Below are positions 1-29,388 of a stretch of 30,891 nucleotides of DNA, piece after piece. The position numbers and the translations under genes were made by a program. How positions within the stretch are numbered: position 1 is the first letter of the stretch; each line of letters starts with the position of its first letter. The stretch is from Actinomycetota bacterium (GTDB lineage Bacteria; Actinomycetota; Actinomycetes; Mycobacteriales; JACQDL01): contig JBKOWA010000243.1 of assembly GCA_046724155.1 (NCBI GenBank), positions 1 through 30,891 on the forward strand. Reading direction: 5' to 3'. The notes under the pieces were generated by a model, which searched no databases, was not told the DNA's origin, and saw only the letters and a program-made list of their open reading frames with translations.

Positions 1-116
1 GGCTGACGGTGCGGTCGAAGGAGGCTACGGCACCGACGCCGGGCACTTCGGGCGACGCTGCTGTTGACCGTTCCCAATCAGGTGCGTACACGTGGCCATC
101 CTTGAACACTGACCGG

Positions 117-930: not shown

Positions 931-1108
931 CCGCCCCGACGCCACCGGAGGTTCCCGCCCAGCTCAACCCGCCGACCGCGCCCGAACTGCCGACCCAGCG
1001 GAGCAACCCGTGGAGAGCCTCGGCGCGTCGCGTGGCTGCTCGGCCCTCCGGCTCTATAGCATCTGCGCTATGACTTGGGGTACTGTGGAACTGGAGCCGG
1101 AGGTGCGG
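931..1108 (+). repeat. Left copy of a diverged direct repeat (TA promoter + toxin 5' end); partner at 29723-29873
   Basis: Shared blocks CCGCCCCGACGCC, CTGCCGACCCA, GGAGAGCC, GGCTGCTCGG, GCTCTATAGCATCTGYGCTATG and GTGGAACTGGAGCCGGAGGTGCGG occur in the same order at both loci. Confidence 0.9.
1056..1071. promoter_or_regulatory. Putative antitoxin operator overlapping the -10 region and start codon of the TA operon
   Basis: Inverted repeat ATAGC-atctgc-GCTAT overlaps a TATAGC -10-like hexamer and the ATG at 1070. The copy at 29821-29836 is a perfect ATAGCA-tctg-TGCTAT. Confidence 0.6.
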
Positions 1109-1421
1109 GAATGGTTGGAGCAACTGCCCACACATCTGTTCGCGACGGCGGCGTTCCACATCGACCTGTTAGCCGAGGACGGCGTGCTGCTGGGGGAGCC
1201 GTACACGAGGCAGCTCGACGGCAAGCTGCGCGAGTTACGGTTCTACCCGTCCGGACCGCCAGGCCACCCGGATCACCTACTGGGTGGCACCTGGCCGGCG
1301 GATCGTGCTGCTGACCATCTTCGGCAAGACCAGGATGCGCGAACAGGGCGAGATCAGCCGTGCCCGGCGGGTGCTCGCGCGCTGTATGGCCGAACAGCAC
1401 GTGGTAGATGAGGAGGTCTGA
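1070..1421 (+). pseudogene. Frameshifted RelE/HigB-superfamily (phage Gp49/DUF891-like) toxin
   Basis: Frame of 1070 reads MTWGTVELEPEVREWL...LLGEPYTRQLDGKLRELRFY. After about 1247-1253 the family-like sequence DRQATRITYWVAPGRRIVLLTIFGKTRMREQGEISRARRVLARCMAEQHVVDEEV* continues in the +1 frame to TGA 1419-1421. Confidence 0.8.
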
Positions 1422-2521: not shown

Positions 2522-2621
2522 GGTTCCCCTTCCCTCTGGCGCGACTGGTGCACCAGGCGGAAAGCGCGGTGAACTACCGGGGCACGTAGTCGGAATTCGG
2601 TCAAGACTAGCACGGGCGGCG

Positions 2622-2747
2622 CCCGGGCGGGGTAAGCAAAATACGTAGCAGCGGGGCGCGAAGTCAACGCAATGCGTCCCGGCGGATGAGCTTGTCGCGG
2701 ACGCGCATGGTGTCGGCGTACCCGTAGCGTCCCTTTCGGCGCGGCAG
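2622..2747. promoter_or_regulatory. Divergent promoter region element, duplicated (inverted) at 15461-15586
   Basis: On the - strand TTGACT-N18-TATTTT faces the sulfotransferase. The palindrome ACGCA-A-TGCGT (2667-2677) abuts the -35. TGAGCTTGTCG at 2687-2697. Confidence 0.6.
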
Positions 2748-4790: not shown

Positions 4791-7700
4791 ATGACCGACA
4801 TGACCCAGCGCCTCGCCGCGTTACCCGCGGAGCGCCGTGCGCAGTTCCTCGCGCAGCTGAGGGCGCAGGCGGAGGACGCGGCCGGACAAGGCCCGACGCC
4901 ACGCGGGGACACCGGTCCGGCACCGCTGTCGCACGCGCAGGAGACCTTGTGGTTCCTCAACCGCCTGGCGCCGGACAGTCCCACCGACAACGTGCCCTGG
5001 TGCACCCGGCTGCAGGGTGACCTGGACGTGAGCGCGTTGCGTTCGGCGCTGGCCGCGGTCGTGGCCAGGCACGAGGCGCTGCGGACCGCGATCGTGGCGC
5101 GCGAGGACGGCCCGGTGCAGGTGGTCGCCCCCGAGGTCCCGGTCGAGCTGCCGCTGGTCGAGGTGGCCGGTGACGACGACGAGCAGCGGCTCGCCGCCGC
5201 GCGGGCGCTCGTCGACGAACGGGTCAGAGCACCGTTCAACCTCGGCAGGATGCCGATGTGGCGCGCGGTGTTGGTCAGGGTGGCGCCGGACGACCACCTG
5301 TTCCTGTTCGACGCGCACCACATCGCGTTCGACGACTGGTCGCTCGGTGTGCTGACCGGCGAGCTGGCCGAGGTCTACCGGTCGCTGCGCGACGGCGACG
5401 AACCGCAGCTGCCCGATCTTCCGGTGCAGTACCCGGACTACGCGGTGTGGCAGCGCGACCGGCTCGACAACGGCGAGCTGGACAAGCTGGCCACGCACTG
5501 GCGGGACACGCTGGCGGGCGCCGAGGTGCTGGAGTTCCCGACCGACCGGCCACGTGGCGACGCGCAGACCTTCGCCGGCGGCGTCGGCAGTTTCACGGTC
5601 GGTCACGAGGGCCTGGAGCGGGCGAGGGAGCTGGCCCGAGAGGAGGGCACGACCCCGTTCGTCGTCCTCGTCGCCGCGTTCTTCACCCTGCTGCACCGCT
5701 ACTGCGGCCTGGACGACCTGGTGATCGGCTCGCCGGACGCGAACCGGCGGCACGACGCCGTGTCATCGATGTTCGGATTCTTCGTCAACATGATGGTGTT
5801 GCGCGGGGACGTCTCCGGCGACCCGACCTTCCGCGAGCTGGTCCAGCGGGTCAGGCGCGTGGCGCTGGACGCGCACGCGCACGGCGACCTGCCGTTCAAC
5901 AAGCTGGTCGACGCCGTGAACCCGACCCGCGACCCCGCACGCTCACCGGTCTTCCAGATCGTGTTCGCCCAGCAGGACGCGGGTACCACGACCGGCCTGC
6001 CCGGACTCGTGACGTCGGAGGAGGCGGTCCGGGTCGGCACCTCCCGGTTCGACATGAGCTGGAACGTGCAGGGGGCAACGGCTCCCGGCGCCGACGCGCT
6101 GCTGGGCATCGACGGGCTGCTGGGCACCGACGCGCTGCTGGGCATCGACGGGCTGCTGGGCATCGAGTTCAACACCGACCTGTTCGACGGCGAGAGCATC
6201 GCCAGGTTCGCCCGGCACTACGACGGACTGCTGCGCACCCTGACCGCCGACCCGGACGCCCCGTTGTCCGCCGCGGACGTGCTGAGCCCGGCGGACAGGG
6301 AGTTCCTCGCCGAGGTCAGCAGCGGGCCGGCGCGGCCGGTACGCGAAACCACTGTCGTGGAACAGTTCGAGGCGCGCGTCGAGGAGTCTCCGGACAGCGT
6401 GGCGGTCGTCGTCGAGGACATCGAGACCAGCTACGCCGAGCTCAACGCCCGGGCGAACCGGCTCGCAGCCCTGCTGCGCGAGCGCGGCGCCGAGCCGGGC
6501 ACGAGGATCGGCCTCTGCCTGCGCAGGAACGTGGACCTGCCGGCAGCGATGCTCGCGGTGCTCAAGACCGGCGCGGCCTACGTGCCACTCGACCCGGCGC
6601 ATCCCCCCGCGCGGGTCGCGGAGATCGCCGCCGACGCGGGTGTACGCGCGGTGGTCGCGCACGCCGACGTCGCCGGGACCGTGAGCGCGGTCACCGCGCC
6701 CGTCGTGGTGCTGGACGACATCCGCGCGGAACTGGCGGCGATGCCCGCCCCAAACCCCCCGCTCGCCGCGAAACCCGGCGGCGTCGCGTACATCATCTAC
6801 ACCTCCGGCAGCACCGGCAGGCCGAAGGGTGTACTGCTCGAACATCGCGGCGTGGTCAACTTCGCCGACTCCACGCGGGACCTGTTCGACCTGACACCGG
6901 ACGACCGGGTGCTCGGGTTCGCGTCGGTCACCTTCGACGTCTCGGTGTTCGAGACGTTCTCCGCGTTGCTGACCGGGGCACGCCTGTGCCTGGCGACCGA
7001 CGACGAACGGCTGTCCATCGACCGGCTCCAGTCGCTGATGGAACGAGCCGGCATCACCGTCATCGACCTGCCGCCGACCGTGATGCCGTTGCTGACGCCG
7101 GAGAGGTTCACCGACCTGCGGATCGCGTTCGTCGGCGGTGAGGCGTTCAGCGGCGAACTGGTGAACCGGTGGAACCGAGGCAGGCGGCTGTTCAACGGCT
7201 ACGGGCCGACCGAGTGCACGGTGACGATGATCGTCGAGGAGTGCGCGGGCACCTGGGACGCCTCGCCGCCGATCGGCCTGCCCATGGCCAACCACGTCGC
7301 GCACGTGCTGGACCGCGAGTTCCGCCAGGTGCCGGTCGGCGTGCCGGGCGAACTGGTGATCGGTGGTGCCGGGCTGGCGCGCGGTTACCTCAACCGCGCC
7401 GAGCTGACCGCGGAGAAGTTCGTCACCGACCCGTTCGGCACCGCGCCGGGCGGGCGGTTGTACCGGACCGGAGACCTGGTGAAGCGGCTGCCGGACGGGC
7501 GGCTGGTCTTCCTCGGCCGGCTCGACCAGCAGGTCAAGATCCGCGGCCTGCGGATCGAGCTGGGCGAGGTGGAGTCGGCGTTGGCCGGCGTCGCCGGAAT
7601 CGGGCCGGTCAGCGTGCAGCCGTGGACCGACGACGCCGGTGACAAGCACCTGGTCGGCTACCTGACGGGCGTCACCGAGCAGCAGGTGCCGGCGGTGCGC

Positions 7701-12036: not shown

Positions 12037-12326
12037 CGTGTCCCGCCTCGATGAGGGGTGGCTGGCAGACCCGCTCGACCACCATACGTGACCAGGTCGA
12101 CGTCGCCGTCACAGTGACCGGGCACGGCGGGGATCCCGGCCAGGTCATTCGGCACGTGCTGCGTCAGGAAAGCTCCGCCGCGTCCTCATCGCCACCAGAT
12201 TCCGCCTTGCTCGGCCCGAACAGCCGACCCCCGCAGAAGTCCGGGCCATCCGCCCGGACCGGGAAGACTCAGCCGCATAGCAGCGAAACTTGAGCTTGTC
12301 GTCCACAGCGGACGCTACGCTGCTGC

Positions 12327-12423: not shown

Positions 12424-13464
12424 ATGAGCCTGGTCGATGTGCACACGGAATGGGATCCGCTCGAGGAGGTCGTCGTCGGGACCATGGCAGGCGCGCGGGT
12501 GCCGATCGTGGAGCGGAGCCTGCTCGCCACCGAATACCCGGACATAGACGATCCGCAGCAGGTTCCGTCCGGCCCGTATCCCGGCCACGTGGTCGAGCAG
12601 ACCGAGGCCGAGCTCGCAGAGCTGGTGGACCTGCTCACCGGCCTCGGCGTGTCCGTGCGGCGGCCCGGCGGGCGCGACCACAAGTCGGTCGTGTCCACCC
12701 CGGACTGGAGCACGGACGGGTTCTACGACTACTGCCCCCGGGACGGGTTCCTCACGGTCGGCAGCTCGATCATCGAGACACCGATGGTGCTGCGGTCCCG
12801 GTTCCTCGAAGGGTTCGCCTACAAGGACCTGTTCCTGGAGTACTTCGAGAGCGGTGCGCGGTGGCTGTCGGCGCCCAAGCCTCAGCTGACCGACGACATG
12901 TACGAGCCGACCGCGCCGCCGGGACAGCGGCTGCGCGATCTGGAACCGGCCTTCGACGCGGCGAACGTGCTCAGGTTCGGTACGGATCTGCTCTACCAGG
13001 TCTCCGACAGCGGCAACATGCTCGGCGCGCGCTGGCTGCAGTCGGTGCTCGGTGCGCAGTACACCGTGCACCCGTGCGAGGGCCTGTACACGTCCACCCA
13101 CATCGACTCGACGATCGTGCCGCTGCGACCCGGGCTCGTGCTGGTGAACCCGGCCCGGGTCAATGATGACAACATGCCCGCGTTCCTGCGTGGCTGGGAC
13201 CGGGTTGTCTGCCCGGAGCTGGTGGACACCGGCTTCGTCGGTGACCACCCGAGGTCGTCGGTGTGGATCGGGATGAACTTCCTGGTGGTCGCGCCCGGAA
13301 AAGCCATTGTGGACAAACGGCAGTCGGAGCTCATCCGGGTGCTGGAGCACCACGGAGTGGAGGTGGTCCCGGCGCAGCTCACCCACTCCAGGACTCTCGG
13401 CGGTGGGTTCCACTGCGTGACGCTCGACGTGCGCCGCACGGGCGCACTTGCCACCTACCGGTGA
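12424..13464 (+). CDS. L-arginine-dependent amidinotransferase (StrB1/glycine amidinotransferase family)
   Basis: MSLVDVHTEWDPLEEVVVG, YDYCPRD, PAFDAANVLRFG, HIDST, and C-terminal GGGFHCVTLDVRR with catalytic Cys. GGGAGGG RBS. Confidence 0.92.
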   Translation: MSLVDVHTEWDPLEEVVVGTMAGARVPIVERSLLATEYPDIDDPQQVPSGPYPGHVVEQTEAELAELVDLLTGLGVSVRRPGGRDHKSVVSTPDWSTDGFYDYCPRDGFLTVGSSIIETPMVLRSRFLEGFAYKDLFLEYFESGARWLSAPKPQLTDDMYEPTAPPGQRLRDLEPAFDAANVLRFGTDLLYQVSDSGNMLGARWLQSVLGAQYTVHPCEGLYTSTHIDSTIVPLRPGLVLVNPARVNDDNMPAFLRGWDRVVCPELVDTGFVGDHPRSSVWIGMNFLVVAPGKAIVDKRQSELIRVLEHHGVEVVPAQLTHSRTLGGGFHCVTLDVRRTGALATYR

Positions 13465-13492
13465 GGCGCGCCGCCGATCGGCAGTTGCCGGG

Positions 13493-14518
13493 TCAGGTCC
13501 GGTCGTGCAGGAGGGTGGGTGGGATGGTGTCCCAGGTGCCGCCGGTGCGGCGGTAGGCGATGCCGGACAGCAGTTCCAGCACGACCCGGTTGGCCAGCGC
13601 GGCGGTGATGTCGGCGTGGTCGTACGGCGGGCTGACCTCGACGACGTCGGCGCCGACGACGGGCAGGGTGACCGCGATCCGGCGGACCGCGTCCAGCAGC
13701 TCGCGGGCGGTCAGGCCGCCGGGCTCGGGGGTGCCGGTGCCGGGCGCCGCGCCGGGGTCGGCGACGTCGATATCGACCGAGACGAACACCCCGTCGCAGT
13801 CGTCGGTGGCGATCGCGAACGCCTCGTCCAGGCAGGCCGGCAGACCGCGGCGGACGATCTCGTGCATCTCGAACGAGCGCATCCGCTGGGCGGCCATCCA
13901 GTCCAGGGTGGGCGGCTCGGGCCAGTACCCGCGCAGGCCGAGCTGGACGAACCGGTCTCCGCGGCAGGCGCCGGACTCGATCAGCCGGCGCATCGGCAGC
14001 CCGTGCCCGATCAGCGAGCCGAACTGGAACTCGCCGGTGTCGGCGTGCGCGTCGAAGTGCAGCACGCTGACCCGGCCCCAGCCGACCGCCCGGGCCACCC
14101 CGGTCACGTCCGGCCAGGTGATGGTGTGGTCCCCGCCGAGCACCACCGGCACCGCCCCGGCCGTGGCCACCTGCTGCACCGCCGCCTCCAGCCGGTCCAG
14201 CGGCAGCCGCCCCTCCACCCCCGGCATCGGCACGTCGCCGGCGTCGGCGACGCGCAGGTCGGCCAGCGGGTCCACGCGCAGCGCCAGGTGCGGCCGGGAC
14301 CCGTCGTGCGACAGGTAGTCCGCGGTCCGGATCGCCTGCGGCCCGAACCGGGCGCCGGCCCGGTACGACGCCCCCGCGTCGTAGGGCGCACCCAGGATCA
14401 CCGCGTCCAGCCCGGACAGCGCGGCCGGATCGGCCAGGTCGCAGCGCGGCACACCCAGGAACGTCACGTCCGGCCCGTACATCCCCCCGACACGCACCAC
14501 GCCGCGATCATCCCACAC
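13493..14518 (-). CDS. speB: Ureohydrolase (agmatinase/guanidinobutyrase/proclavaminate amidinohydrolase-like)
   Basis: GARFGPQAIR, GGDHTIT, HFDAHADT, SVDIDVADP, PGTGTPEPGG. Start uncertain (alternative ATG 14482). Confidence 0.88.
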   Translation of the reverse strand: MWDDRGVVRVGGMYGPDVTFLGVPRCDLADPAALSGLDAVILGAPYDAGASYRAGARFGPQAIRTADYLSHDGSRPHLALRVDPLADLRVADAGDVPMPGVEGRLPLDRLEAAVQQVATAGAVPVVLGGDHTITWPDVTGVARAVGWGRVSVLHFDAHADTGEFQFGSLIGHGLPMRRLIESGACRGDRFVQLGLRGYWPEPPTLDWMAAQRMRSFEMHEIVRRGLPACLDEAFAIATDDCDGVFVSVDIDVADPGAAPGTGTPEPGGLTARELLDAVRRIAVTLPVVGADVVEVSPPYDHADITAALANRVVLELLSGIAYRRTGGTWDTIPPTLLHDRT

Positions 14519-14620
14519 CTCAAACGGTGCGCAGGTCGCGCCGGCGGTGAGCAGTTCGGTGGCCGAGCAGCGCCGGGTAGCGGCGCAGCGCGCGGATGTG
14601 GGTGCTGACGCCGATCCGGG

Positions 14621-15391
14621 TCAGTACCGGCTCTCCCGCTGGGCTGGCGGCCGCAGCCGCAGGCCGTGCATGCCGCCGTCCACGGCAAGCACCGTGCCCA
14701 CCGAAGCGCCCGACAGCGGGCTCGCCAGGTAGGCGATCGCGTTGGCCACCTCGTCGGCCGACACCAGACGCCCCATCGGCTGCCGCGCGTTGAGCGCGGC
14801 CCGTTCGGCCGCCGGATCCGCCGTCCGGTCGAGCAACCTGTCCACCCACGGCGTGTCCGCTGTACCAGGGGCGACGCAGTTGACCCGGATGCCCTCGCGG
14901 ACGTGGTCCGCCGCCATCGCCAGCGTCAGCGCGTACACCGCGCCCTTGCTGGCGGAGTACAGCACCCGCTGCTCCAGCCCGGCCCACGCGACGATCGAGC
15001 ACGTGTTGACGATCGCCGCGGCGGGTGAGCGCCGCAGGTGCGGCAACGCGTGCCGGGCGACCCTGACCATCCCGACCACGTTGACGTCCAGCACCCGCAG
15101 CCACTCGTCGTCGCTGTTCCCGGAGACATCCCCGACCGCGCTGATCCCGGCGTTGTTCACCACCACGTCCAGCCTGCCGAACCGCTCGACCACGGCGTCC
15201 ACGGCGGACCTGACCTGGGCGTCGTCGGTGACGTCGGCCTTGATGCCCATGATGCCGCCCGGGACGCCGTCCGGATCGAGATCGAGCGCGGCGACCTCGG
15301 CTCCCCTGCCGTGCAGCAGTTCCGCCGTGGCCAGGCCGATCCCCGACGCACCACCGGTGACGATCGCGACCAGTCCTTCGAAGTCACTCAC
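14621..15391 (-). CDS. Short-chain dehydrogenase/reductase
   Basis: VTGGASGIG, VVNNAG, YSASK, VNCVAPGT. GTG at 15391 follows a GGAGAG RBS. Confidence 0.92.
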   Translation of the reverse strand: MSDFEGLVAIVTGGASGIGLATAELLHGRGAEVAALDLDPDGVPGGIMGIKADVTDDAQVRSAVDAVVERFGRLDVVVNNAGISAVGDVSGNSDDEWLRVLDVNVVGMVRVARHALPHLRRSPAAAIVNTCSIVAWAGLEQRVLYSASKGAVYALTLAMAADHVREGIRVNCVAPGTADTPWVDRLLDRTADPAAERAALNARQPMGRLVSADEVANAIAYLASPLSGASVGTVLAVDGGMHGLRLRPPAQRESRY

Positions 15392-15460
15392 GAGTTCTCT
15401 CCCGTCCACTCCGGACCATCGTCCGGTTGCAGCATCGAGATCGCGCCGGCCGGCAGCGGT

Positions 15461-15586
15461 CTGCCGCGTCGCGAGGGACGTTACGGGTCCGCCGGCACCG
15501 TGCGCGTCCGCGACAAGCTCATCCCCGGGGACGCACTGCGTTGACCTTCCTCCCGGGTGGCTGCGTATTTCGCTTACCTGCCCGGG
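15461..15586 (+). repeat. Inverted, diverged copy of 2622-2747
   Basis: By-eye alignment gives 10 mismatches in the first 85 nt, an identical core TGCGCGTCCGCGACAAGCTCATCC, and retained ACGCA-N-TGCGT, TTGAC and CGTATTT.GCTTACC. Confidence 0.9.
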
Positions 15587-15595
15587 TTGCGCCCG

Positions 15596-15810
15596 ACTTC
15601 GACGACGGCTCGGTCGCGCGGGACCGCTGCGGGTCTCCGACTTTCTGGGCGGCGCCTGCATGGTTCGGCGAACTCAAGGCGTTTGAGAACCGGGTCATGC
15701 ACTATCCGCACCACGTGCAGCGGGGCGTGTCCGCGGTCATGCGGGCGCAGCGGGTGCCGGTCACCCGGCGTGCCGGCCTGGCCACCGTCCGGCTGCCCCG
15801 CAACATCGCG
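15596..15810 (+). repeat. Inverted copy of 27418-27632 (internal fragment of the aziU2-like gene)
   Basis: 215 bp with 7 substitutions and 2 single-base indels by eye. Both loci translate to FWAAPAWFGELKAFE..VMHYPHHVQRGVSAVM.AQRVPVTRRAGLA.VRLPRNIA. Confidence 0.95.
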
Positions 15811-15828
15811 GAAAGGGTGGACCACGCA

Positions 15829-17028
15829 ATGACTGACCGCTTGACGCCGGATGACCACATCGCCATCGCCGAGCGCTGGAGCGCGCACAACTACCACCCG
15901 TTGCCCGTGGTGCTCACTCATGGGGAGGGCGCCTGGCTGACCGATCTGAACGGCAGGCGCTACCTCGACTTCCTCGCCGGGTACTCCGCGCTCAACTTCG
16001 GCCACCGGCACCCGGACATCGTCGCCGCGGCCAAGGCACAGCTCGACCGGCTGACGCTGACCGGCCGCGCGTTCCACCACGACCAGTTCGGACTGTTCTG
16101 CCGTGAGCTGGCCGAGCTGACGGGCACCGACATGGTGCTGCCCGCCAACTCCGGCGCCGAGGCGGTCGAGTCGGCCCTGAAGATCGCCAGGAAGTGGGCC
16201 TACCAGGTCAAGGGCGTGCCGGACGGCGCCGCCGAGATCGTGGTCGCCGGCGAGAACTTCCACGGCCGCACGACGACCATCGTCTCGTTCTCCACCGACC
16301 CGGACGCCCGCAACGGGTTCGGCCCGTTCACCCCGGGCTTCACGGTGGTGCCGTACGGCGACATCGACGCGCTGCGCTCGGCGGTCACCGAGAACTCGGC
16401 AGCGGTGCTGCTGGAGCCGATCCAGGGCGAGGCGGGTGTGGTCGTCCCGCCGAAGGGGTACCTCGCCGAGGTCCGTCAGCTGTGCGACGACAGCTTCACA
16501 CTGTTCATCGCCGACGAGGTCCAGTCCGGACTGGCCCGCACCGGCGCGACGCTGGCGCTGGACCACGAAGGCGTCCGCGCGGACCTGTACGCCCTGGGCA
16601 AGGCGCTGGGTGGCGGGATCATGCCGGTGTCCGCGGTGGTCGGCCGGGCCGACGTCCTCGGCGTGCTCAAGCCCGGCGAGCACGGCTCGACCTTCGGCGG
16701 CAACCCGGTGGCGTGCGCGGTCGGCCGCGCGGTGGTGCGGTTGCTGGCGACCGGGGAGTTCCAGGAACGGTCCCGCGAACTCGGCGCGTACGTGCACTCC
16801 CGGCTCGGCGAACTGGAGGGCGTCGCCGAGGTCCGCGGCCGCGGCCTGTGGGCCAGCGTGCAGATCGCCGAGGGCAGCCGGACCGGACGCGAGGTGTCCG
16901 AGGCACTGGTCGAGCGCGGCGTGCTGTGCAAGGAATACCATTCGAGCCTCCGGGTGGCGCCGCCGCTGGTGATCACCCGTGCGGAGATCGACTTCGGCAT
17001 CGACGCGCTCGCCGCGGTTCTCGCGTGA
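15829..17028 (+). CDS. rocD: Ornithine--oxo-acid aminotransferase (class III PLP)
   Basis: AHNYHPLPVV, YLDFLAGYSALNFGHRHP, NFHGRT, EPIQGEAG, DEVQSGLARTG, LGKALGGG, HGSTFGGNP. Confidence 0.9.
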   Translation: MTDRLTPDDHIAIAERWSAHNYHPLPVVLTHGEGAWLTDLNGRRYLDFLAGYSALNFGHRHPDIVAAAKAQLDRLTLTGRAFHHDQFGLFCRELAELTGTDMVLPANSGAEAVESALKIARKWAYQVKGVPDGAAEIVVAGENFHGRTTTIVSFSTDPDARNGFGPFTPGFTVVPYGDIDALRSAVTENSAAVLLEPIQGEAGVVVPPKGYLAEVRQLCDDSFTLFIADEVQSGLARTGATLALDHEGVRADLYALGKALGGGIMPVSAVVGRADVLGVLKPGEHGSTFGGNPVACAVGRAVVRLLATGEFQERSRELGAYVHSRLGELEGVAEVRGRGLWASVQIAEGSRTGREVSEALVERGVLCKEYHSSLRVAPPLVITRAEIDFGIDALAAVLA

Positions 17029-17067: not shown

Positions 17068-18318
17068 TTGAGGACGGTGTGGCGGGGGCCGAAGGTGCGG
17101 CTTGACCAGTACCGGAAGGTGGTCGCCGTCCGGGGCTTCCCCCTGGTCATGGCGCTCGGGCTGCTCGCCAAGCTGCCGATCGTGGCGATCCCGATCATCC
17201 TGACCCTGCACGTGGCGACCGGGCTCGATCGCGGGTACGGGCAGGCGGGCCTGGTGATCGGGGCGTGGACCGCGGGGGTCACCGTCAGTGCGCCCGTCCT
17301 GGGCCGGTTCATGCAGCGGTACGGCCTTCGGCCGGTGCTGGCGGTCGTCACCCTGGCCCAGGGGGTGTTCTGGGGCCTGGCGCCGCAGCTGTCGTTCCCG
17401 GTCTTCGCGGCGGGTGCACTCGCCTCAGGGCTGCTGCTGGTGTCGGGCTCCACCGTGGTCCGGCTGGCCATCGGCGGGCTGGTCCCGCAGGAACATCGGC
17501 ACACGGCCTTCGCGGTGGACTCGGTGATCACCGAAGTCTCGATCATGATCGGCCCCGCCCTGGCCGTTCTGGTCACCTCTCAGACCTCCACGAAGGGTGC
17601 GCTGACCAGTCTCTGTGTCGCCCTGGTCATCAGCTGCGGCGCCCTGGCGGTGTTCAATCCCAGGATCGAAGGGGCGCCCGCGGCCGGCGGTACGAACGCT
17701 CCAGCCGCCGCAGCGCCGCGGAACTGGCTGACCGTCCGGTTGGTCGCCGTTCTCGCCTGCTCGCTGTCGGCCGGAGCGATCGTCACGGGGTACGAGGTCG
17801 TCGTCGTCGGCACGCTGCGGTCCACGGGCCAGCTCGGGTGGACGGGGCTGGTGCTCTTCGGATGCGGGGTGTGCTCGCTGGTCGGCGGGCTGGTGTACGG
17901 GGCTCTTCCGCGCGGCCTTCCGGTGCCGTTGATGATCGGTCTGCTGGCTTTGGCCACGATGCCCCTGGGGCTGGTGGGGCCGCGCTGGTGGGTGCTCGCC
18001 CTGGCGATCGTCCCGGCCGCGGCACTGGTCGCGCCGGGGTTCGCCGCGACCGCGAACGCTGTCAGTCAAGAGGCCGGGTACGGCAGCCAGGCGGTCGTCA
18101 TGAGCGTCTATGGATCCGCGCTCAGCGCCGGCAGCTCGATCGGCGCGCCACTGGCGGGAGCGGCCTTCGAGTCGGGTGGCGCCGAGGCCGGTTTCGCGTC
18201 GGTGGGCGGACTGGGCGTGATCGTCGCGGTCTCGGCCTGGACCGTGCTGGGGCGCCGTTCGGAACGGGTGCGCGAGGACTACGTCCCAGCTACCCAAGGT
18301 ATGCCGGTTGAAAGGTAA
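17068..18318 (+). CDS. MFS transporter (probable exporter)
   Basis: About 12 hydrophobic segments, motif-A-like GRFMQRYGLRPVL, two-halved architecture. Start may be GTG 17095. Confidence 0.88.
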   Translation: MRTVWRGPKVRLDQYRKVVAVRGFPLVMALGLLAKLPIVAIPIILTLHVATGLDRGYGQAGLVIGAWTAGVTVSAPVLGRFMQRYGLRPVLAVVTLAQGVFWGLAPQLSFPVFAAGALASGLLLVSGSTVVRLAIGGLVPQEHRHTAFAVDSVITEVSIMIGPALAVLVTSQTSTKGALTSLCVALVISCGALAVFNPRIEGAPAAGGTNAPAAAAPRNWLTVRLVAVLACSLSAGAIVTGYEVVVVGTLRSTGQLGWTGLVLFGCGVCSLVGGLVYGALPRGLPVPLMIGLLALATMPLGLVGPRWWVLALAIVPAAALVAPGFAATANAVSQEAGYGSQAVVMSVYGSALSAGSSIGAPLAGAAFESGGAEAGFASVGGLGVIVAVSAWTVLGRRSERVREDYVPATQGMPVER

Positions 18319-18321
18319 GGA

Positions 18322-18411
18322 ATGCCTGCTCCGCAGAATGTCGGCGTGGTCGGCTCGTATGCGTCGATGCGGTTGCTCGCGGAAGAGCTGAAGGCGGGAG
18401 TCGCGGCATGA
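18322..18411 (+). CDS. 29-aa small ORF or gene remnant
   Basis: MPAPQNVGVVGSYASMRLLAEELKAGVAA*. AAGG just upstream; the stop overlaps the ATG of the next gene (ATGA). Confidence 0.3.
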   Translation: MPAPQNVGVVGSYASMRLLAEELKAGVAA

Positions 18412-19658
18412 CGATCTTGGAACTCGACGGCGCCGAACATGTCGTCATCGTCAACCGGTGGGCGGAGCGCTACGCGGACTTCTCGCGGTACGCCGACCAT
18501 CGGGCACATCGGGTCACCTATGTGAGCACAGCGGTGGGGCTGTCCGCCATCCCCGCCGAGGCCACCGAGGTGGTCACGGTGAAGGCCACCGACGACCTGG
18601 CGGAAGTGACCGCCGCGGTGGACGGCCTGGCGCGCCGTCACGGGGCTCCGGACCGTATTGTGGCGCTGAAGGAGGACGATCTCCTGGTCGGTGCCGCCCT
18701 GCGGGAGAAGTGGGAGGTGCCGGGCCCCCGGGTGGACCAGCTGCTGCCGTTCCGGGACAAGTTCCTGATGGCGACGCGGGTGGCCGAGGCAGGGGTGGCG
18801 GTGCCGGATTTCGCCCTGGTGCCCGACGCGCAGGCCGTGCGGGGGTTCGCCGAGCGCGCCGGCTGGCCGGTCATCGTCAAACCGACGGTCGGCAGTTCCA
18901 GCGCCGGCGTGGTCCGGCTCGACGGACCGGGTGACCTGAGCGGGCTCTCCTTCGACGAGGGCCCCCTGCTGGCACAGGTGTTCAACCCGCACCAGATCTA
19001 CCACGTGGACGGGGTCTTCACCGGAGAACGACTGTTGGTCGTGCGCGCCTCCCGGTACCTGAACAACTGCCTGGGATTCCGTGGCGGTGGGACTCTGGGC
19101 TCGGTGGAGGAGAGCGACCCGGAAATCACGGGGATTATCGCCGAGTTCACGCTGCGGGCCATGCGTGCACTGTCGGACCGGGCCCTGGTCTTTCATCTCG
19201 AAATGTTCCTGGACGTGGATACGGGTTCCTGTGCCTTCCTGGAGGTCGGCGCCCGGGCGGGCGGCGCGGAGATCCCGCTGCTCTGGCGGGAGGTCCACGG
19301 GCACGACCTGATGGAAACCGCGTTCCGGATTCAGATGGGCCTGCGGATCCGTGCGGAGGCCCCACGGATCGCGGACGAGGTCGGCGGCTGGCTGCTCGTT
19401 CCGGCGCCGGTGAACCGTCCCTGCCGGATCACCGAGATCACACCGATGGTGGGCCGGCAGCCGGGCCCTTACGCCGAGGTGTTGCTGAGGGTGGGAGAGG
19501 TCCTGCCCGATGCCGACTCGTACTACGAGCACGTCGGCGGCCGCTTCCGGTTCCGGGGGGAGTCCAGCCAGGCCGTGGAGGCGGCGATCCGCACGATCGC
19601 GGCCGATTTCCGGGTGAGCGCGGAACCCGTGAGCCTGGTGCGGCGAACACCGGAGTGA
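18408..19658 (+). CDS. ATP-grasp ligase 1 (L-amino-acid ligase-like)
   Basis: FRDKFLM, GWPVIVKPTVGSSSAGV, YHVDG, FHLEMF, FLEVGARAGG. Confidence 0.88.
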   Translation: MTILELDGAEHVVIVNRWAERYADFSRYADHRAHRVTYVSTAVGLSAIPAEATEVVTVKATDDLAEVTAAVDGLARRHGAPDRIVALKEDDLLVGAALREKWEVPGPRVDQLLPFRDKFLMATRVAEAGVAVPDFALVPDAQAVRGFAERAGWPVIVKPTVGSSSAGVVRLDGPGDLSGLSFDEGPLLAQVFNPHQIYHVDGVFTGERLLVVRASRYLNNCLGFRGGGTLGSVEESDPEITGIIAEFTLRAMRALSDRALVFHLEMFLDVDTGSCAFLEVGARAGGAEIPLLWREVHGHDLMETAFRIQMGLRIRAEAPRIADEVGGWLLVPAPVNRPCRITEITPMVGRQPGPYAEVLLRVGEVLPDADSYYEHVGGRFRFRGESSQAVEAAIRTIAADFRVSAEPVSLVRRTPE

Positions 19659-19729
19659 AGAGGATGGGCATGGAATACGAGACCACGCCGGCGACGCGCG
19701 GTACCTCGGGCGTCAATGGAGCGCCAGAA

Positions 19730-21025
19730 TCACCTGGCAGGGAACGTCTTTCCTTGTCGAGGGTTGTCGTCGTAGAGGTAGTCGCGTTCGATTTGCCGCA
19801 GCTTCTCGTAGTCGGCGCGAATCTCTTCCGGATCATCGGAGATGAGAAATATCCACCCCGGCTGGGTCGCGACATCGATCGTTCGCGGAAGCGGGTGCCC
19901 TTCCGGATGCGCCATGAGGGTATGGGCGTAGGACGGTAGCGCGCGGATGGCGGCCATCGTCTCGTGGGACGGGACCACGCCGTGGTCCCTCGGGTTGATC
20001 AGAGACACGTCACGTGGGTGCTGCAGCAGCTGGTACACGGTGGTTGGCAGGCGGTTGAACTCGTCCGGGTCCACCACGGCCAGCGTGAAGAGCTCTATCT
20101 GGTTGGTGCCGAAACAGCGCGTGTTGATCTCCGGAACCTGGCCACCGCCGAAGCGTGCGGCACACTCGACGAGCACCGGCCCGCCGGCGGTCAGCATGAC
20201 CTCGGTGTGGGCGGCCCAGTTGCGGATCTCCAGGGCGTCGAGCACCTGGTGAGTGTAGGACTCCAGCTTTTTGGCGACCGGGTCGTCCGGCGCCAGCGGC
20301 TCGTCGTAGTCGTAGATGATGTTGCCGCCGGCGAGCCGAATCTTGTAGTACCGCCAGATCTCGACGGTGTGATGCCTGCCGTCACGACTGACCGTGTTGA
20401 CGAAGTACTCTTCCCCGGCCAGGAACTCCTGCGCGAGCACCACCGTATTGGGCTTCCCGTGACGGTCGGTACTGGTCATGATCTTTTCGTGGACGGCGCG
20501 AACCTGCTCCGGAGACGAACATGCCGCGACGTTGTCCGTGCCGGAGCTGGCGACCGGTTTCAGGACGACCGGGTAGCCTGCGGTCGTCTCGGCCCACGCG
20601 ATGATGTCGTCGGCATCGGATGCGACTGTGGTGGCCGCGTGTGCCAGTCCGGCATCGCGCAGTGCCAGGACCATGTCATATTTGTTGCGTCGGGCCGTCG
20701 GTCGGCTCATCCCGTTGCCGGGAGTGTCGAGCTCGGCGGAGAGCTGGTCGGCCAGCTCGACGCCCGACTCCCCGGCGGCGATCACGTAGCTGACCCCACG
20801 CGCACGCAGCGCGGCCGCCGTGGCCACGACGTCACCGTCATGGCGGACATTGTCGACGAAACCATCGGGGATCGGCAGCCGAGCCAGGTGAACGTCGGGG
20901 CTCGGCGACTGGACGTGCACACACTCCACGTCGTGCCGGTGCAGCGCGGGCAGCAGGTGGCGCCCCATCGAGTACGCGTCGACCAACGCCGCTCGTGTCG
21001 TCTGCGCGCGAGAACTGGTTGGCAT
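19730..21025 (-). CDS. ATP-grasp ligase 2 (NikS/L-amino-acid ligase-like)
   Basis: LVDAYSMG, RRNKYDM, YPVVLKPVASSGTDNV, QEFLAGEEYFVN, AHTEVML, LVECAARFGGG. Confidence 0.88.
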   Translation of the reverse strand: MPTSSRAQTTRAALVDAYSMGRHLLPALHRHDVECVHVQSPSPDVHLARLPIPDGFVDNVRHDGDVVATAAALRARGVSYVIAAGESGVELADQLSAELDTPGNGMSRPTARRNKYDMVLALRDAGLAHAATTVASDADDIIAWAETTAGYPVVLKPVASSGTDNVAACSSPEQVRAVHEKIMTSTDRHGKPNTVVLAQEFLAGEEYFVNTVSRDGRHHTVEIWRYYKIRLAGGNIIYDYDEPLAPDDPVAKKLESYTHQVLDALEIRNWAAHTEVMLTAGGPVLVECAARFGGGQVPEINTRCFGTNQIELFTLAVVDPDEFNRLPTTVYQLLQHPRDVSLINPRDHGVVPSHETMAAIRALPSYAHTLMAHPEGHPLPRTIDVATQPGWIFLISDDPEEIRADYEKLRQIERDYLYDDNPRQGKTFPAR

Positions 21026-26321: not shown

Positions 26322-27374
26322 TCACAGTCGCGCCGCTGCCGCGTCCACGGCGTCGACCGCACCCGCGTACCTGCCGCGCAGCACGGTGGCGTGGTGCGCG
26401 ATGTCGGCTGAGACCGCACGGGGATCGCCGAGACCGTGCGCGCCGGTGATCCGCAGCCCGGTCCACGCGTGCGCGACAGACTCGACCGCCCGTCCGGCCC
26501 CGGCAAGCGCCGGATCGCCCCATTCCCGGCCGCAGCGGCGCAGAAGCTCACCGTGCAGTGCGGCCTGCGCCTGCATGCCCCAGCCGAACGAGTACAGCTC
26601 GCGTAGCGCGGTGGCGTCCCCGGCACGGCACCGGTCGAGGAGCTCCCCGGCGAACTCGTCGAATCCGGCGAGACCGGTGCGGGCCGAGGTGGCCGTGGTG
26701 AAGGCGGCGACGTCGGTGCGCAGGAAACCGCCGAGCAGTTCGGGGGTCAGCGGCGGGGGCGGGGCGTCGAGCCGGACGTCGAGACCGCGCCTGCCGATCT
26801 GCGAGTCACTGAAGAACGCGTCCTGGACGTCGGTGGGGTTGGTCGAACCCCAGCTGCGCAGGAACGCCTCGATCGGGACGGCACCGCGGAACGCGGGCGG
26901 CATCGCGTCCGAGACGTACACCAGCCCGCGGACCTCGTCCAGGCCGTAGACCACCACGAGGTGCGCGGCGTGCACGTCGCCGTACGCGGGCCGGAACGGC
27001 AGGTAGAAGTTGTCCACCGCGGCGATGACCAGCCGGTCGTCGGCCAACGTCCCGCGCACCTCCCGCCAGGGGTCGTCCTCATCGGCGGGCTGCCACCAGC
27101 GCGAGTGCAGTTCGTGGTGCGGTGCCAGGGCGGCACCGAGGTCAGCGCCGCCGGACTCCTCGGCAGGGCACGGGTAGTAGAACTCCTCGGACCTGACATC
27201 GCCGGGCAGGTGCAGGAACCGCCAGCCCGCTCCGAGCACGGTCAGCGGGTCGGCGCCGGCCCGTGCCAGCAGCGAGCCGAACGTGGCCTGAAGGCAGCTG
27301 ATCAGGTCGCGGTACCACCACTCTGGCTCCGGCCCGGTGACCAGGTACGTCCGTGCCGTCACGTCACTGGTCAT
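26322..27374 (-). CDS. BtrH-like (papain-fold) protein, probable AziU3/Vzb11-type aziridine-forming subunit
   Basis: SCLQ near the N-terminus, VDNFYLPFRPAYGDVHAAHLVVVYGLD, VYVSD. Overlaps the upstream gene stop by 11 nt. The AziU3 assignment rests on fold family and context. Confidence 0.72.
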   Translation of the reverse strand: MTSDVTARTYLVTGPEPEWWYRDLISCLQATFGSLLARAGADPLTVLGAGWRFLHLPGDVRSEEFYYPCPAEESGGADLGAALAPHHELHSRWWQPADEDDPWREVRGTLADDRLVIAAVDNFYLPFRPAYGDVHAAHLVVVYGLDEVRGLVYVSDAMPPAFRGAVPIEAFLRSWGSTNPTDVQDAFFSDSQIGRRGLDVRLDAPPPPLTPELLGGFLRTDVAAFTTATSARTGLAGFDEFAGELLDRCRAGDATALRELYSFGWGMQAQAALHGELLRRCGREWGDPALAGAGRAVESVAHAWTGLRITGAHGLGDPRAVSADIAHHATVLRGRYAGAVDAVDAAAARL

Positions 27375-27972
27375 GCTCGACCTCCGCCCGCTGCAGGGTG
27401 ACCGCGAAGACATGCATCGCGATGTTGCGGGGCAGCCGGACGCCGGCCAGGCCGGCACGCCGGGTGACCGGCACCCGCTGCGCCCACATGACCGCGGACA
27501 CGCCCCGCTGCACGTGGTGCGGATAGTGCATGACCGGGGTCTCAAACGCCTTGAGTTCGCCGAACCATGCCGGCGCCGCCCAGAAGTCGGAGACCCGCAG
27601 CGGTTCCGCGTCGACCGAGCCGTCGTCGAAGTTCAGCTCGACGGTGTCCTCGCTACGCCGTTCCGCCGCCGCCAGCACGTGCACCCAGTCGTAACGACCC
27701 GCCGGCACGGTGAGGAACTGTCCGGCGCAGCGGACGTTGTCCGGCCCGTCGCTGACCGGAGGGAACAGGAAGGGAACGCCGGCCACGTGGACGAGGCTTT
27801 CGCCCGCGGGCAGGTACTCGGCGGCAAACGAGTTCCTCCACACGTTGAACTCTCCCGCTTTGGTCTCCGTCGCCGCGGTGATGGCCGTGTTGTTGCGATG
27901 GCCGGAGATGTCGACCGGGTCGTACAGTCGGGTCATGGCGGAGGGCACCAGGATGTTCGTCAAGTGATCCAC
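27364..27972 (-). CDS. Beta-sandwich-like hypothetical protein, probable AziU2/Vzb10-type partner
   Basis: Clean 202-aa ORF with high-GC codon usage (GEFNVWRNSF, DNVRCAGQ, AAAERRSED, MHYPHHVQ), coupled to the BtrH-like gene. Alternative start ATG 27936. Function from context only. Confidence 0.6.
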   Translation of the reverse strand: MDHLTNILVPSAMTRLYDPVDISGHRNNTAITAATETKAGEFNVWRNSFAAEYLPAGESLVHVAGVPFLFPPVSDGPDNVRCAGQFLTVPAGRYDWVHVLAAAERRSEDTVELNFDDGSVDAEPLRVSDFWAAPAWFGELKAFETPVMHYPHHVQRGVSAVMWAQRVPVTRRAGLAGVRLPRNIAMHVFAVTLQRAEVEHDQ

Positions 27973-28983: not shown

Positions 28984-29388
28984 TCACGGTGTCTTGCCGG
29001 GGACGATGTGTCGGACGGTCGGCACGCGGCTGACCGCGCGGTCGAACGATACCACCGCGCCGATGCCGGATACCTCGGCGCTGGCGACGAGATACGCCTC
29101 GGCGAAGTCCAGCCGGTCGACCTCGTACACCTCCAGTGCACGCAGGAGCAGCGGCTCGTCCACCACCGTGACCGGTGGGAAGGCGAGCACTGCCCGGACC
29201 AGCTCGGCGACCCGGCCGCGGGGCACCTCGTAGAAGGACTCCAGCACGTATACCGTCTCGGCGACGATCAGGTCCGCGAGGAGCAGTTCGTCGGCCGCGG
29301 CGAGGAACGCCGTGGCCTGCCGGGCCTGTTTCGGCGGGTCGCCGGTGAGATGCCTGATCAGGATGTTGGTATCGACGAATGCGCTCAC
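28984..29388 (-). CDS. vapC: PIN-domain VapC toxin
   Basis: AFVDTNILIR, IVAETVYVL, LDFAEAYLVA, VVSFDR. GTGA overlap with the antitoxin stop. Confidence 0.9.
   Translation of the reverse strand: MSAFVDTNILIRHLTGDPPKQARQATAFLAAADELLLADLIVAETVYVLESFYEVPRGRVAELVRAVLAFPPVTVVDEPLLLRALEVYEVDRLDFAEAYLVASAEVSGIGAVVSFDRAVSRVPTVRHIVPGKTP

What the first reader, a model, noticed from the sequence alone, without database searches (positions are those of the whole stretch)
12424..17028. Candidate OH-to-guanidine tailoring trio: SDR, aminotransferase, amidinotransferase
Oxidation, transamination and amidino transfer is the established route to guanidino groups in streptidine biosynthesis. Ficellomycin carries a guanidine where vazabitide has a hydroxyl. 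All three activities sit together here and share promoter motifs with the core operon. The SDR and OAT look like ordinary catabolic enzymes, so this may be an independent, recent recruitment.
Basis: partly seen in the sequence, partly recalled or inferred. Interest (0 to 1): 0.68.

Follow-up and report, generated by a model that had tools for sequence, protein, structure and literature searches.

The report
Conserved ficellomycin guanidine-tailoring gene trio
Three neighbouring genes in a soil actinomycete's antibiotic gene cluster (a dehydrogenase, an ornithine-type aminotransferase and an amidinotransferase) are the same three genes found in the known ficellomycin cluster, so they are an inherited toolkit, not a new recruitment, that most likely turns a hydroxyl into the guanidine group.

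Summary
Window 12424-17028 encodes a StrB1-type amidinotransferase, a classical NAD-type SDR and a RocD-type ornithine aminotransferase (OAT). It also holds a fourth gene that this finding does not mention, an agmatinase-like ureohydrolase. The window is one whole contig of a soil MAG and carries a ficellomycin-type AmCP/azabicyclo cluster: its Fic25 homologue scores 851 bits to PDB 8GYH, and AziU2/AziU3, a sulfotransferase and LysWXYZK are present.

All three genes have orthologues at 83-87% identity in the Streptomyces ficellus fic cluster and in every other fic-type cluster examined, across at least five named genera plus MAGs and metagenome contigs. They have diverged as much as the core genes. 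The cluster OATs form one clade (SH-aLRT 99), separate from the housekeeping copies in the same genomes. Three azabicyclo cluster types that lack an amidinotransferase also lack the SDR and the OAT.

The oxidation, transamination and amidino-transfer reading is therefore supported by co-occurrence, though not proven. The "independent, recent recruitment" idea is refuted.

New in this lineage are a permuted gene order, about 350 bp of duplicated cluster DNA forming the SDR/OAT promoter region, and the ureohydrolase. The OAT active site is almost unchanged from RocD, so removal of the ornithine by-product remains a serious rival role. This is a new member of a known kind, of modest interest.

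The parts
12291..12301 (+). Exact 11-mer TGAGCTTGTCG, 122 nt upstream of the amidinotransferase start. The same motif lies upstream of LysX and of the SDR.
   Evidence: 3 exact and 2 one-mismatch matches against 0.4 expected. TGA(G/A)CTTGTCG is conserved in the sulfotransferase/LysX intergenic region of S. ficellus and five other fic-type loci. One search gives the neighbourhoods.
12424..13464 (+). StrB1-type L-arginine amidinotransferase (346 aa)
   Evidence: 569 bits to PDB 1BWD, with Asp108, Asp179, His227 and Cys332 aligned. ATG preceded by GGGGAGGG; 87% identity to the S. ficellus fic-cluster gene.
13493..14482 (-). Agmatinase-like ureohydrolase of the guanidino-acid hydrolase subgroup (329 aa; a GTG at 14518 would give 341 aa). 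It lies downstream of the SDR in the same orientation, separated by a 138-bp gap.
   Evidence: Arginase family 286 bits; TIGR01230 184.7 against a cut-off of 174.3; nearest PDB entries are 7ESR, 1GQ6 (proclavaminate amidinohydrolase), 3NIP and 3NIO; metal-ligand motifs intact; absent from all other fic-type clusters seen.
14621..15391 (-). Classical NAD-type short-chain dehydrogenase (256 aa)
   Evidence: adh_short_C2 188.6 bits. PDB 4DQX and BacC (5ITV); motifs; 87% identity to the S. ficellus fic-cluster SDR.
15461..15595 (.). Inverted copy (82-84%) of the core sulfotransferase/LysX divergent promoter region. It includes a TTGAC -35-like box, the palindrome and the 11-mer at 15511-15521 (- strand).
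   Evidence: (I2).
15596..15812 (.). Inverted copy (96%) of the 3' part of the AziU2-like gene. It ends 16 bp before the OAT start.
   Evidence: (I1).
15829..17028 (+). RocD-type ornithine aminotransferase (399 aa), first gene of the OAT-MFS-ATP-grasp unit
   Evidence: TIGR01885 457.9 against 378.4; 428 bits to PDB 3RUY; the equivalents of human OAT Y55, Y85, F177, R180, E235, K292 and R413 are kept; member of the cluster-specific OAT clade; 83% identity to the S. ficellus gene.
2613..2747 (.). Source copy of the duplicated promoter element. It lies in the sulfotransferase (start 2521, -) / LysX (start 2795, +) intergenic region and holds the 11-mer at 2687-2697.
27418..27632 (-). Source copy of the 215-bp fragment, the 3' part of the AziU2-like gene (27364-27972)

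Best explanation
The window is a rearranged ficellomycin-type biosynthetic gene cluster. The amidinotransferase, SDR and OAT are orthologues of three genes carried by the S. ficellus ficellomycin cluster and by every fic-type cluster examined. They are an old, co-inherited tailoring set of that family.

Most likely mechanism:
1. The NAD-dependent SDR oxidises the secondary hydroxyl on C5 of the 2,6-diamino-5,7-dihydroxyheptanoate (DADH) skeleton, which becomes ring C4 of the azabicyclohexane, to a ketone.
2. The OAT-type enzyme aminates that carbonyl. In primary metabolism this enzyme works on the delta carbon of a free alpha-amino acid, and C5 is the delta carbon here.
3. The StrB1-type amidinotransferase moves the amidino group of L-arginine onto the new amine through its Cys-His-Asp covalent mechanism. 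This gives the guanidine and releases ornithine.

Shown: gene identities, orthology, co-occurrence, intact catalytic motifs, and shared regulatory DNA. Inferred: the substrates, the order of steps, and the stage at which they act.

In this MAG the cluster order is permuted and partly inverted. That places the three genes side by side and puts the OAT operon behind a duplicated copy of the core sulfotransferase promoter. The SDR sits on the LysX-facing side of the same copy, with the shared 11-mer 119 nt upstream. A ureohydrolase has been added downstream of the SDR.
For: Cluster identity:
- The Fic25 homologue scores 851 bits to PDB 8GYH.
- AziU3 and AziU2 homologues are present.
- LysW/X/Y/Z/K, a transketolase pair, a sulfotransferase, an NRPS, a TE and two ACADs are present.

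The S. ficellus CP034279.1 cluster holds a 346-aa amidinotransferase, a 402-aa class-III aminotransferase and a 252-aa SDR. They are 87%, 83% and 87% identical to the window's genes; core genes are 77-90%.

Where the trio is found:
- All three genes in Actinophytocola, Rhizomonospora, Herbidospora and two Streptomyces.
- The OAT-SDR pair in Micromonospora halophytica, with the amidinotransferase on L013.
- Class-III aminotransferase and SDR on metagenome contigs L072 and P0008, and the aminotransferase alone on L078 before that locus ends.
- Identity of OAT and SDR tracks core-gene identity across clusters.

The OAT tree puts 13 cluster-linked OATs in one clade (SH-aLRT 99). Housekeeping copies in the same genomes are 62-73% identical.

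Three azabicyclo cluster types that lack an amidinotransferase also lack the SDR and the OAT.

Catalytic residues are intact in all three enzymes. The SDR's nearest characterised relative, BacC, oxidises a ring secondary alcohol of an amino acid. Its nearest non-cluster homologues (66-74%) sit beside enolase-superfamily dehydratases and a GntR regulator, which points to secondary-alcohol oxidation of hydroxy acids.

Shared regulatory DNA is shown.

From established knowledge: Fic25 makes AmCP-bound 5S,6S-DADH as a ficellomycin intermediate (PMC11726168, citing Kurosawa 2023), so a C5 hydroxyl must later be replaced by guanidine. Apart from Fic25, the OAT is the only aminotransferase conserved in the cluster.
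Against: - No biochemical or genetic data were obtainable for these three genes.
- The cluster OAT clade differs from housekeeping RocD-type OATs at only two diagnostic positions, V231 and E348. All ornithine-binding residues are kept. That is little sign of a change from an aldehyde to a bulky ketone substrate.
- A four-gene cassette (amidinotransferase, ATP-grasp, OAT, L-amino-acid ligase) pairs the amidinotransferase with the OAT without an SDR. This ties the OAT more closely to the amidinotransferase than to the SDR.
- The fic-type clusters also differ from the comparison clusters in other genes (LAL, MFS; NRPS and ACADs in some), so the co-occurrence is not specific to the guanidine.
- The compared clusters are related to one another, so the counts are not independent.
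Confidence: 0.6

Rival explanations
1. The amidinotransferase installs the guanidine, but the OAT is a true ornithine aminotransferase. Its job is to remove or recycle the ornithine released by the amidinotransferase. That relieves product inhibition and returns nitrogen and carbon to glutamate, the starter unit of the pathway. The SDR then has another role, and the C5 amine is made by a different enzyme.
For: - The OAT passes the OAT equivalog cut-off and keeps every ornithine-binding residue.
- Only two clade-diagnostic substitutions separate it from housekeeping OATs.
- An amidinotransferase-OAT pair recurs without an SDR in a four-gene cassette. In one genome (G046) that cassette holds the only fic-type amidinotransferase.
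- From established knowledge: ornithine inhibits arginine:glycine amidinotransferase, as in OAT-deficiency hyperornithinaemia.
Against: - Every genome checked already has a housekeeping OAT.
- Other amidinotransferase loci fetched here (64-68% identity; L019-L024) have no OAT within 10 kb.
- No other spare aminotransferase is conserved in the cluster to make the C5 amine.
- The SDR co-occurs strictly with the pair in full clusters.
- All cassette genomes also hold a full fic-type cluster with the SDR, so the cassette need not be autonomous.
Confidence: 0.25
2. One reading: the SDR and OAT were recruited recently and independently in this lineage from ordinary catabolic genes.
For: Both belong to common primary-metabolism families and have 66-78% homologues scattered in related genomes. 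The promoter region in front of them is a recent 96% duplicate.
Against: Orthologues at 82-91% sit in fic-type clusters of several genera, including the proven producer. They form a cluster-specific clade and have diverged in step with the core genes.
Confidence: 0.03
3. The interval is a piece of arginine/ornithine catabolism (ureohydrolase plus RocD plus a dehydrogenase) that lies inside the cluster by chance or through an assembly error, and it plays no part in the product.
For: The ureohydrolase is 84% identical to a housekeeping-looking gene of a same-order relative and is absent from other fic clusters. The contig comes from a 65%-complete, 617-contig MAG.
Against: The SDR and OAT are cluster orthologues, not the MAG's housekeeping type. 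Core cluster genes flank the block on both sides. Unitigs from soil metagenome runs bridge three of the junctions. The regulatory DNA is shared with the core.
Confidence: 0.04

Closest known systems
Ficellomycin biosynthetic gene cluster of Streptomyces ficellus (fic; MIBiG BGC0001593; Liu et al. 2017, cited in PMC6804068)
   Same: The gene families are the same: AmCP system, transketolase pair, Fic25, sulfotransferase, AziU2/AziU3, NRPS C-A-T with TE, two ACADs, LuxR-type regulator, amidinotransferase, class-III aminotransferase, SDR and MFS. Amino-acid identity is 77-90%.
   Different: - The order is permuted: the AziU2-to-LysZ block and the tail lie on the other side of the amidinotransferase-to-sulfotransferase block. 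The OAT-MFS-ATP-grasp unit is inverted, so the three tailoring genes are adjacent here, whereas they sit at opposite ends in S. ficellus.
- No CysC/D/N genes on the contig.
- The L-amino-acid ligase is replaced by two other ATP-grasp genes, as on metagenome contig P0008.
- TE is a separate gene.
- A ureohydrolase is added.
Streptidine branch of streptomycin biosynthesis (dehydrogenase, aminotransferase, StrB1 amidinotransferase)
   Same: The chemical logic is the same: oxidise a secondary alcohol, transaminate, then transfer an amidino group from arginine. The amidinotransferase is a close homologue of StrB1 (569 bits, catalytic residues kept).
   Different: From my own knowledge, the streptidine dehydrogenase and aminotransferase belong to other families (a DegT/StsC-type aminotransferase, not class III; not a classical SDR), and the substrate is an inosamine phosphate. 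Only the amidinotransferase is homologous.
RocD / ornithine delta-aminotransferase of arginine catabolism
   Same: It passes the TIGR01885 equivalog cut-off, is 62-75% identical to housekeeping copies, and keeps all substrate- and PLP-binding residues.
   Different: It forms a separate, cluster-linked clade with two diagnostic substitutions and sits in a secondary-metabolite operon.
Vazabitide A / azinomycin B type azabicyclo clusters
   Same: They share the AmCP, DADH, sulfation and AziU2/AziU3 aziridine machinery.
   Different: The three non-fic cluster types sampled here have no amidinotransferase, SDR or class-III aminotransferase within 10 kb. From my own knowledge, their products keep oxygen at the corresponding carbon. 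These sampled clusters are not the published vzb or azi clusters themselves.
BacC, dihydroanticapsin 7-dehydrogenase (PDB 5ITV)
   Same: It is a classical SDR that oxidises a ring secondary alcohol of an amino-acid-derived antibiotic to a ketone. It is the second-best PDB match of the SDR (149 bits).
   Different: It is only a distant homologue. The nearest non-cluster relatives of the SDR are sugar-acid pathway dehydrogenases.

Membership tests
Amidinotransferase (StrB1/AGAT) family | Full-length sequence similarity to solved amidinotransferases | tested here: met
   1BWD E=3.7e-170 over residues 29-373 of the long ORF. HsvA, SxtG and AGAT score E=1e-57 to 1e-68.
Amidinotransferase (StrB1/AGAT) family | Catalytic Cys-His-Asp triad (StrB1 Cys332, His227, Asp179) and substrate-binding Asp108 | tested here: met
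   In the alignment all four columns are identical. Residue numbering is from my own knowledge of the StrB1 structure paper.
Amidinotransferase (StrB1/AGAT) family | Arginine-dependent amidino transfer to the pathway amine | not testable with these tools
   Needs an enzyme assay or labelled-arginine feeding.
Ornithine--oxo-acid transaminase (TIGR01885 equivalog) | Score above the curated cut-off | tested here: met
   457.9 bits against 378.4. The related model NF003145 scores 496.7, below its cut-off of 656.
Ornithine--oxo-acid transaminase (TIGR01885 equivalog) | PLP lysine and ornithine-binding residues (human Y55, Y85, F177, R180, E235, K292, R413) | tested here: met
   alignment to human OAT chains. 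Residue list from my own knowledge.
Ornithine--oxo-acid transaminase (TIGR01885 equivalog) | Ornithine as the physiological substrate | not testable with these tools
   This is the open question between the best explanation and the first rival.
Classical short-chain dehydrogenase/reductase | TGxxxGxG cofactor motif, NNAG, catalytic Ser-Tyr-Lys | tested here: met
   TGGASGIG at 12-19, NNAG at 79, YSASK at 145. Asp37 at the end of beta-2 suggests NAD preference. One search gives the Pfam scores.
Ficellomycin-type BGC | AmCP system plus transketolase pair plus Fic25-type aminotransferase (DADH route) | tested here: met
Ficellomycin-type BGC | Sulfotransferase plus AziU2/AziU3 aziridine-forming pair | tested here: met
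Ficellomycin-type BGC | Amidinotransferase, class-III aminotransferase and SDR orthologous to the S. ficellus genes | tested here: met
Ficellomycin-type BGC | CysC/CysD/CysN sulfate-activation genes and LAL-type ligase in the cluster | tested here: not met
   They are absent from the contig. The same gene content is seen on metagenome contig P0008 and, for CysC/D/N, on L072. This is a sub-type difference, and the MAG is only 65% complete.
Ficellomycin-type BGC | Product is ficellomycin or a guanidino-azabicyclo dipeptide | not testable with these tools
   Needs chemistry.
Ureohydrolase (arginase/agmatinase) superfamily, for the fourth gene | Binuclear-metal ligand motifs GGDH, DAHxD, SxDxDxxD | tested here: met
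   family scores; nearest structures.

The most novel reading that the evidence does not exclude
The OAT and the amidinotransferase form a closed two-enzyme cycle fed by arginine alone. The amidinotransferase releases ornithine. The almost unchanged OAT uses that ornithine as amino donor to aminate the SDR-made 5-oxo (delta-oxo) intermediate. The amidinotransferase then caps the new amine. Arginine would supply both the amine nitrogen and the amidino group, and a delta-specific primary-metabolism enzyme would be reused with hardly any change because the target carbon is the delta carbon. The lineage-specific ureohydrolase would then act as a guanidine 'eraser' or an ornithine supplier that modulates this cycle.
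Probability: 0.15. Interest if true: 0.6.

Novelty: new member of a known kind. Interest (0 to 1): 0.3.

Why it matters
As far as I could find, the steps that give ficellomycin its guanidine have not been shown biochemically. This analysis narrows them to three conserved genes and gives a clear comparative argument: present in all fic-type clusters sampled, absent from guanidine-less azabicyclo clusters. It also sets out a sharp alternative for the OAT, catalyst or ornithine scavenger, that simple experiments can settle. It removes a misleading evolutionary reading. The rearranged MAG cluster is a natural 'compact' version of the tailoring module, three adjacent genes with shared regulatory DNA, and could be convenient for heterologous expression. 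It does not reveal a new kind of system.

Tried and rejected
- Pfam and NCBIfam alone do not recognise the amidinotransferase. The PDB sequence search settled it.
- My first context scan around amidinotransferase homologues seemed to show that the SDR and OAT were absent from related clusters. Extending the loci showed them at the opposite end of those clusters, which reversed that reading.
- The key ficellomycin papers (Liu 2017, He 2018, Kurosawa 2023) are not held. What I say about their proposals is from memory or from citing papers.
- I looked for clade-specific active-site changes in the OAT that would indicate a new substrate. Only two diagnostic positions were found.
- Read support: only short, low-depth Logan unitigs were available. 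Several junctions are bridged, but none was seen across 15812/15813.
- An assembly chimera was considered and judged unlikely. It would need two joins, the duplicated copies are distinct at 82-96% identity, and core genes lie on both sides.
- A search of intergenic regions for longer shared elements found only the SDR/OAT-to-sulfotransferase/LysX homology. The amidinotransferase shares just the 11-mer.

Full report
**What is at the coordinates**

The window is 70% G+C and is one whole contig (C14) of a 2.76-Mb, 617-contig, 65%-complete assembly. Runs that hold it are soil metagenomes.

Third-position GC and start-site inspection give four genes in 12424-17028:

| Gene | Coordinates | Length | Main evidence |
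|---|---|---|---|
| Amidinotransferase | 12424-13464 (+) | 346 aa | Pfam almost misses it (ADI, E=0.025). It scores 569 bits to StrB1 (PDB 1BWD) with Asp108, Asp179, His227 and Cys332 aligned. |
| Agmatinase-like ureohydrolase | 13493-14482 (-) | 329 aa | Not mentioned in this finding. Metal-ligand motifs are intact. The nearest structures are guanidine hydrolase, proclavaminate amidinohydrolase, guanidinopropionase and guanidinobutyrase. |
| Classical SDR | 14621-15391 (-) | 256 aa | Motifs TGGASGIG, Asp37, NNAG and YSASK. |
| RocD-type OAT | 15829-17028 (+) | 399 aa | TIGR01885 457.9 bits against a cut-off of 378.4; 428 bits to PDB 3RUY. |

**What the cluster is**

The surrounding genes are:
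- LysX, an M20/LysK-type peptidase, an NRPS (C-A-T), a TE, two ACADs and a LuxR-type response regulator on one side;
- an MFS, two ATP-grasp ligases, LysZ, LysY, LysW, a split transketolase, a DegT-type aminotransferase, a BtrH_N protein and a 202-aa protein on the other;
- a sulfotransferase next to LysX.

The DegT enzyme scores 851 bits to PDB 8GYH. I take 8GYH to be Fic25, described in PMC11726168 as the aminotransferase that makes AmCP-bound 5S,6S-DADH for ficellomycin. That paper gives no PDB code, but the window's gene is 89% identical to the S. ficellus gene at that position. The BtrH_N and 202-aa proteins match AziU3 and AziU2. This is therefore a ficellomycin-type azabicyclo cluster.

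**The comparative test**

Homologues of the amidinotransferase were fetched from species-representative genomes. At first the SDR and OAT seemed to be missing from the related clusters, because the amidinotransferase is an edge gene there. Fetching the other half of five clusters (Actinophytocola, Rhizomonospora, Herbidospora and two Streptomyces) showed OAT orthologues at 82-90% and SDR orthologues at 83-91% at the far end, after LysZ.

The proven producer S. ficellus (CP034279.1) has this order:
- amidinotransferase, LuxR, ACAD2, ACAD1, NRPS-TE, M20, LysX;
- then, divergently, sulfotransferase, AziU2, AziU3, Fic25, TK, TK, LysW, LysY, LysZ, CysC, CysD, CysN, class-III aminotransferase, LAL, MFS, SDR.

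The window's amidinotransferase, OAT and SDR are 87%, 83% and 87% identical to these genes. Core genes are 77-90% identical.

The class-III aminotransferase and the SDR are also present in a Micromonospora halophytica variant, where they are adjacent, and on metagenome contigs L072 and P0008; L078 shows the aminotransferase before that locus ends. Across clusters, OAT and SDR identity rises and falls with core-gene identity, as expected for co-inheritance.

In each of five genomes, the cluster OAT copy (82-90% to the window) is distinct from a housekeeping copy (62-73%). In a maximum-likelihood tree the 13 cluster-linked OATs form one clade (SH-aLRT 99) nested among RocD-type OATs.

Three azabicyclo cluster types with more distant AziU3 homologues (59-63%) contain no amidinotransferase, SDR or class-III aminotransferase within 10 kb.

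The three genes therefore travel together and with the fic type only. The compared clusters are related to one another, and the fic type also differs in other genes, so this is supportive rather than decisive.

The functional proposal is the most economical one.
- Fic25 yields a 5-hydroxy intermediate, so the hydroxyl must be replaced.
- Apart from Fic25, the OAT is the only conserved aminotransferase.
- C5 is the delta carbon of the alpha-amino acid, which is the position an OAT works on.
- The SDR looks NAD-dependent. Its relatives oxidise secondary alcohols: BacC, and homologues at 66-74% that lie beside enolase-superfamily dehydratases and a GntR regulator.
- The amidinotransferase is a close StrB1 relative.

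The idea of an independent, recent recruitment is refuted. The recruitment from primary metabolism predates the spread of the family across genera.

**What is peculiar to this contig**

Relative to S. ficellus, the two halves of the cluster are swapped and the OAT-MFS-ATP-grasp unit is inverted. This puts the amidinotransferase, SDR and OAT side by side.

The 437-bp SDR/OAT intergenic region is largely duplicated cluster DNA:
- 15461-15595 is an inverted 82-84% copy of the sulfotransferase/LysX divergent promoter region.
- 15596-15812 is an inverted 96% copy of the 3' end of the AziU2-like gene.
- Similarity stops 16 bp before the OAT ATG.

The orientation places a copy of the sulfotransferase-side promoter in front of OAT. 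The LysX-side element, with its 11-mer TGAGCTTGTCG, faces the SDR.

That exact 11-mer also lies 122 nt upstream of the amidinotransferase. The distances to the LysX, amidinotransferase and SDR starts are 97, 122 and 119 nt. The motif is conserved in the sulfotransferase/LysX region of S. ficellus and five other fic-type loci, and it lies upstream of the cassette amidinotransferase in L011 and L016. Co-regulation of the three genes with the core is therefore plausible.

Gene content matches metagenome contig P0008, which reads LysZ, ATP-grasp, OAT, SDR, MFS, 417-aa protein. Like the window, it has no CysC/D/N, no LAL, two other ATP-grasp genes and a separate TE. The ureohydrolase has no counterpart in any other fic cluster seen. 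Its best match (84%) is a gene of a same-order relative in an unrelated neighbourhood.

Short unitigs from soil metagenomes bridge three of the junctions. The source sample may be among those runs, so this is weak independent support.

**The open point**

The cluster OAT clade differs from housekeeping OATs at only two diagnostic positions, V231 and E348, and keeps all ornithine-binding residues.

A four-gene cassette (amidinotransferase, ATP-grasp, OAT, LAL) occurs elsewhere in several genomes. All of those genomes also hold a full fic-type cluster with a single SDR. In one genome (G046) the cassette carries the only fic-type amidinotransferase.

These facts keep alive the rival in which the OAT simply disposes of the ornithine released by the amidinotransferase. 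They also allow a hybrid in which ornithine is the amino donor for the ketone.

My estimates:
- about 0.85 that the amidinotransferase makes the guanidine;
- about 0.6 for the whole three-step scheme;
- about 0.25 for the scavenger role.

**Verdict**

This is a real, correctly located gene set. It is a rearranged member of the known ficellomycin cluster family. The tailoring hypothesis is reasonable and now comparatively supported, but it is neither new in kind nor a recent recruitment.

Noticed in passing
L011:10001-15155; also L012, L016, L018 and G041:C86: A compact four-gene cassette (amidinotransferase 80-82%, ATP-grasp 71-73% to the window's 19730-21025 gene, OAT 81-83%, LAL-type ligase) is flanked by unrelated genes. 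All cassette genomes checked also hold a full fic-type cluster. In G046 the cassette carries the only fic-type amidinotransferase. The TGAGCTTGTCG motif lies about 200 nt upstream in L011 and L016.
   Followed up: partly
window 1048-1122 and 29813-29887: A 75-nt direct repeat (83% identity) brackets the whole cluster. Each copy holds a TATAGC...GCTATG-like inverted motif and the start of a small ORF (MTWGTVELEPEVR...), which looks like paired toxin-antitoxin-type modules. A PIN-domain gene lies at 28984-29388.
   Followed up: no
window 13493-14482: The ureohydrolase lies tail to tail with the amidinotransferase and downstream of the SDR. It belongs to the guanidino-acid hydrolase subgroup, has intact metal ligands and is unique to this cluster among those compared. 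It could remove a guanidine, as proclavaminate amidinohydrolase does, or it could be a hitch-hiking housekeeping gene.
   Followed up: partly
window 17068-21025: The LAL-type ligase of S. ficellus is replaced here by two different ATP-grasp genes. One (18408-19658) has only weak ATP-grasp matches. CysC/D/N are missing from the contig. Metagenome contig P0008 has the same gene content in unrearranged order.
   Followed up: partly
window 6087-6158: Four head-to-tail 18-nt units lie inside the NRPS gene and encode a repeated hexapeptide near the C/A-domain boundary.
   Followed up: no
window 15427-15828: The reading frame stays open for 134 codons upstream of the OAT ATG, partly through the AziU2-derived fragment. 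Orthologues are 400-409 aa and an RBS precedes 15829, so the extension is probably not translated.
   Followed up: partly
window 12424-13464; L056:14345-15385: Pfam-A does not detect StrB1-type amidinotransferases of this clade (ADI model, E=0.025). The S. ficellus orthologue carries no Pfam family in the precomputed annotation. This is an annotation gap that can hide the gene in BGC surveys.
   Followed up: yes
G050:C28:49037-49801: The match to the SDR in one Streptomyces genome's fic-type cluster contains one in-frame TAG. It may be a pseudogene or a sequencing error.
   Followed up: no
window 3-887: An AadA-like nucleotidyltransferase (aminoglycoside adenylyltransferase C-terminal domain) lies at the contig edge, outside the repeat-bracketed cluster.
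   Followed up: no
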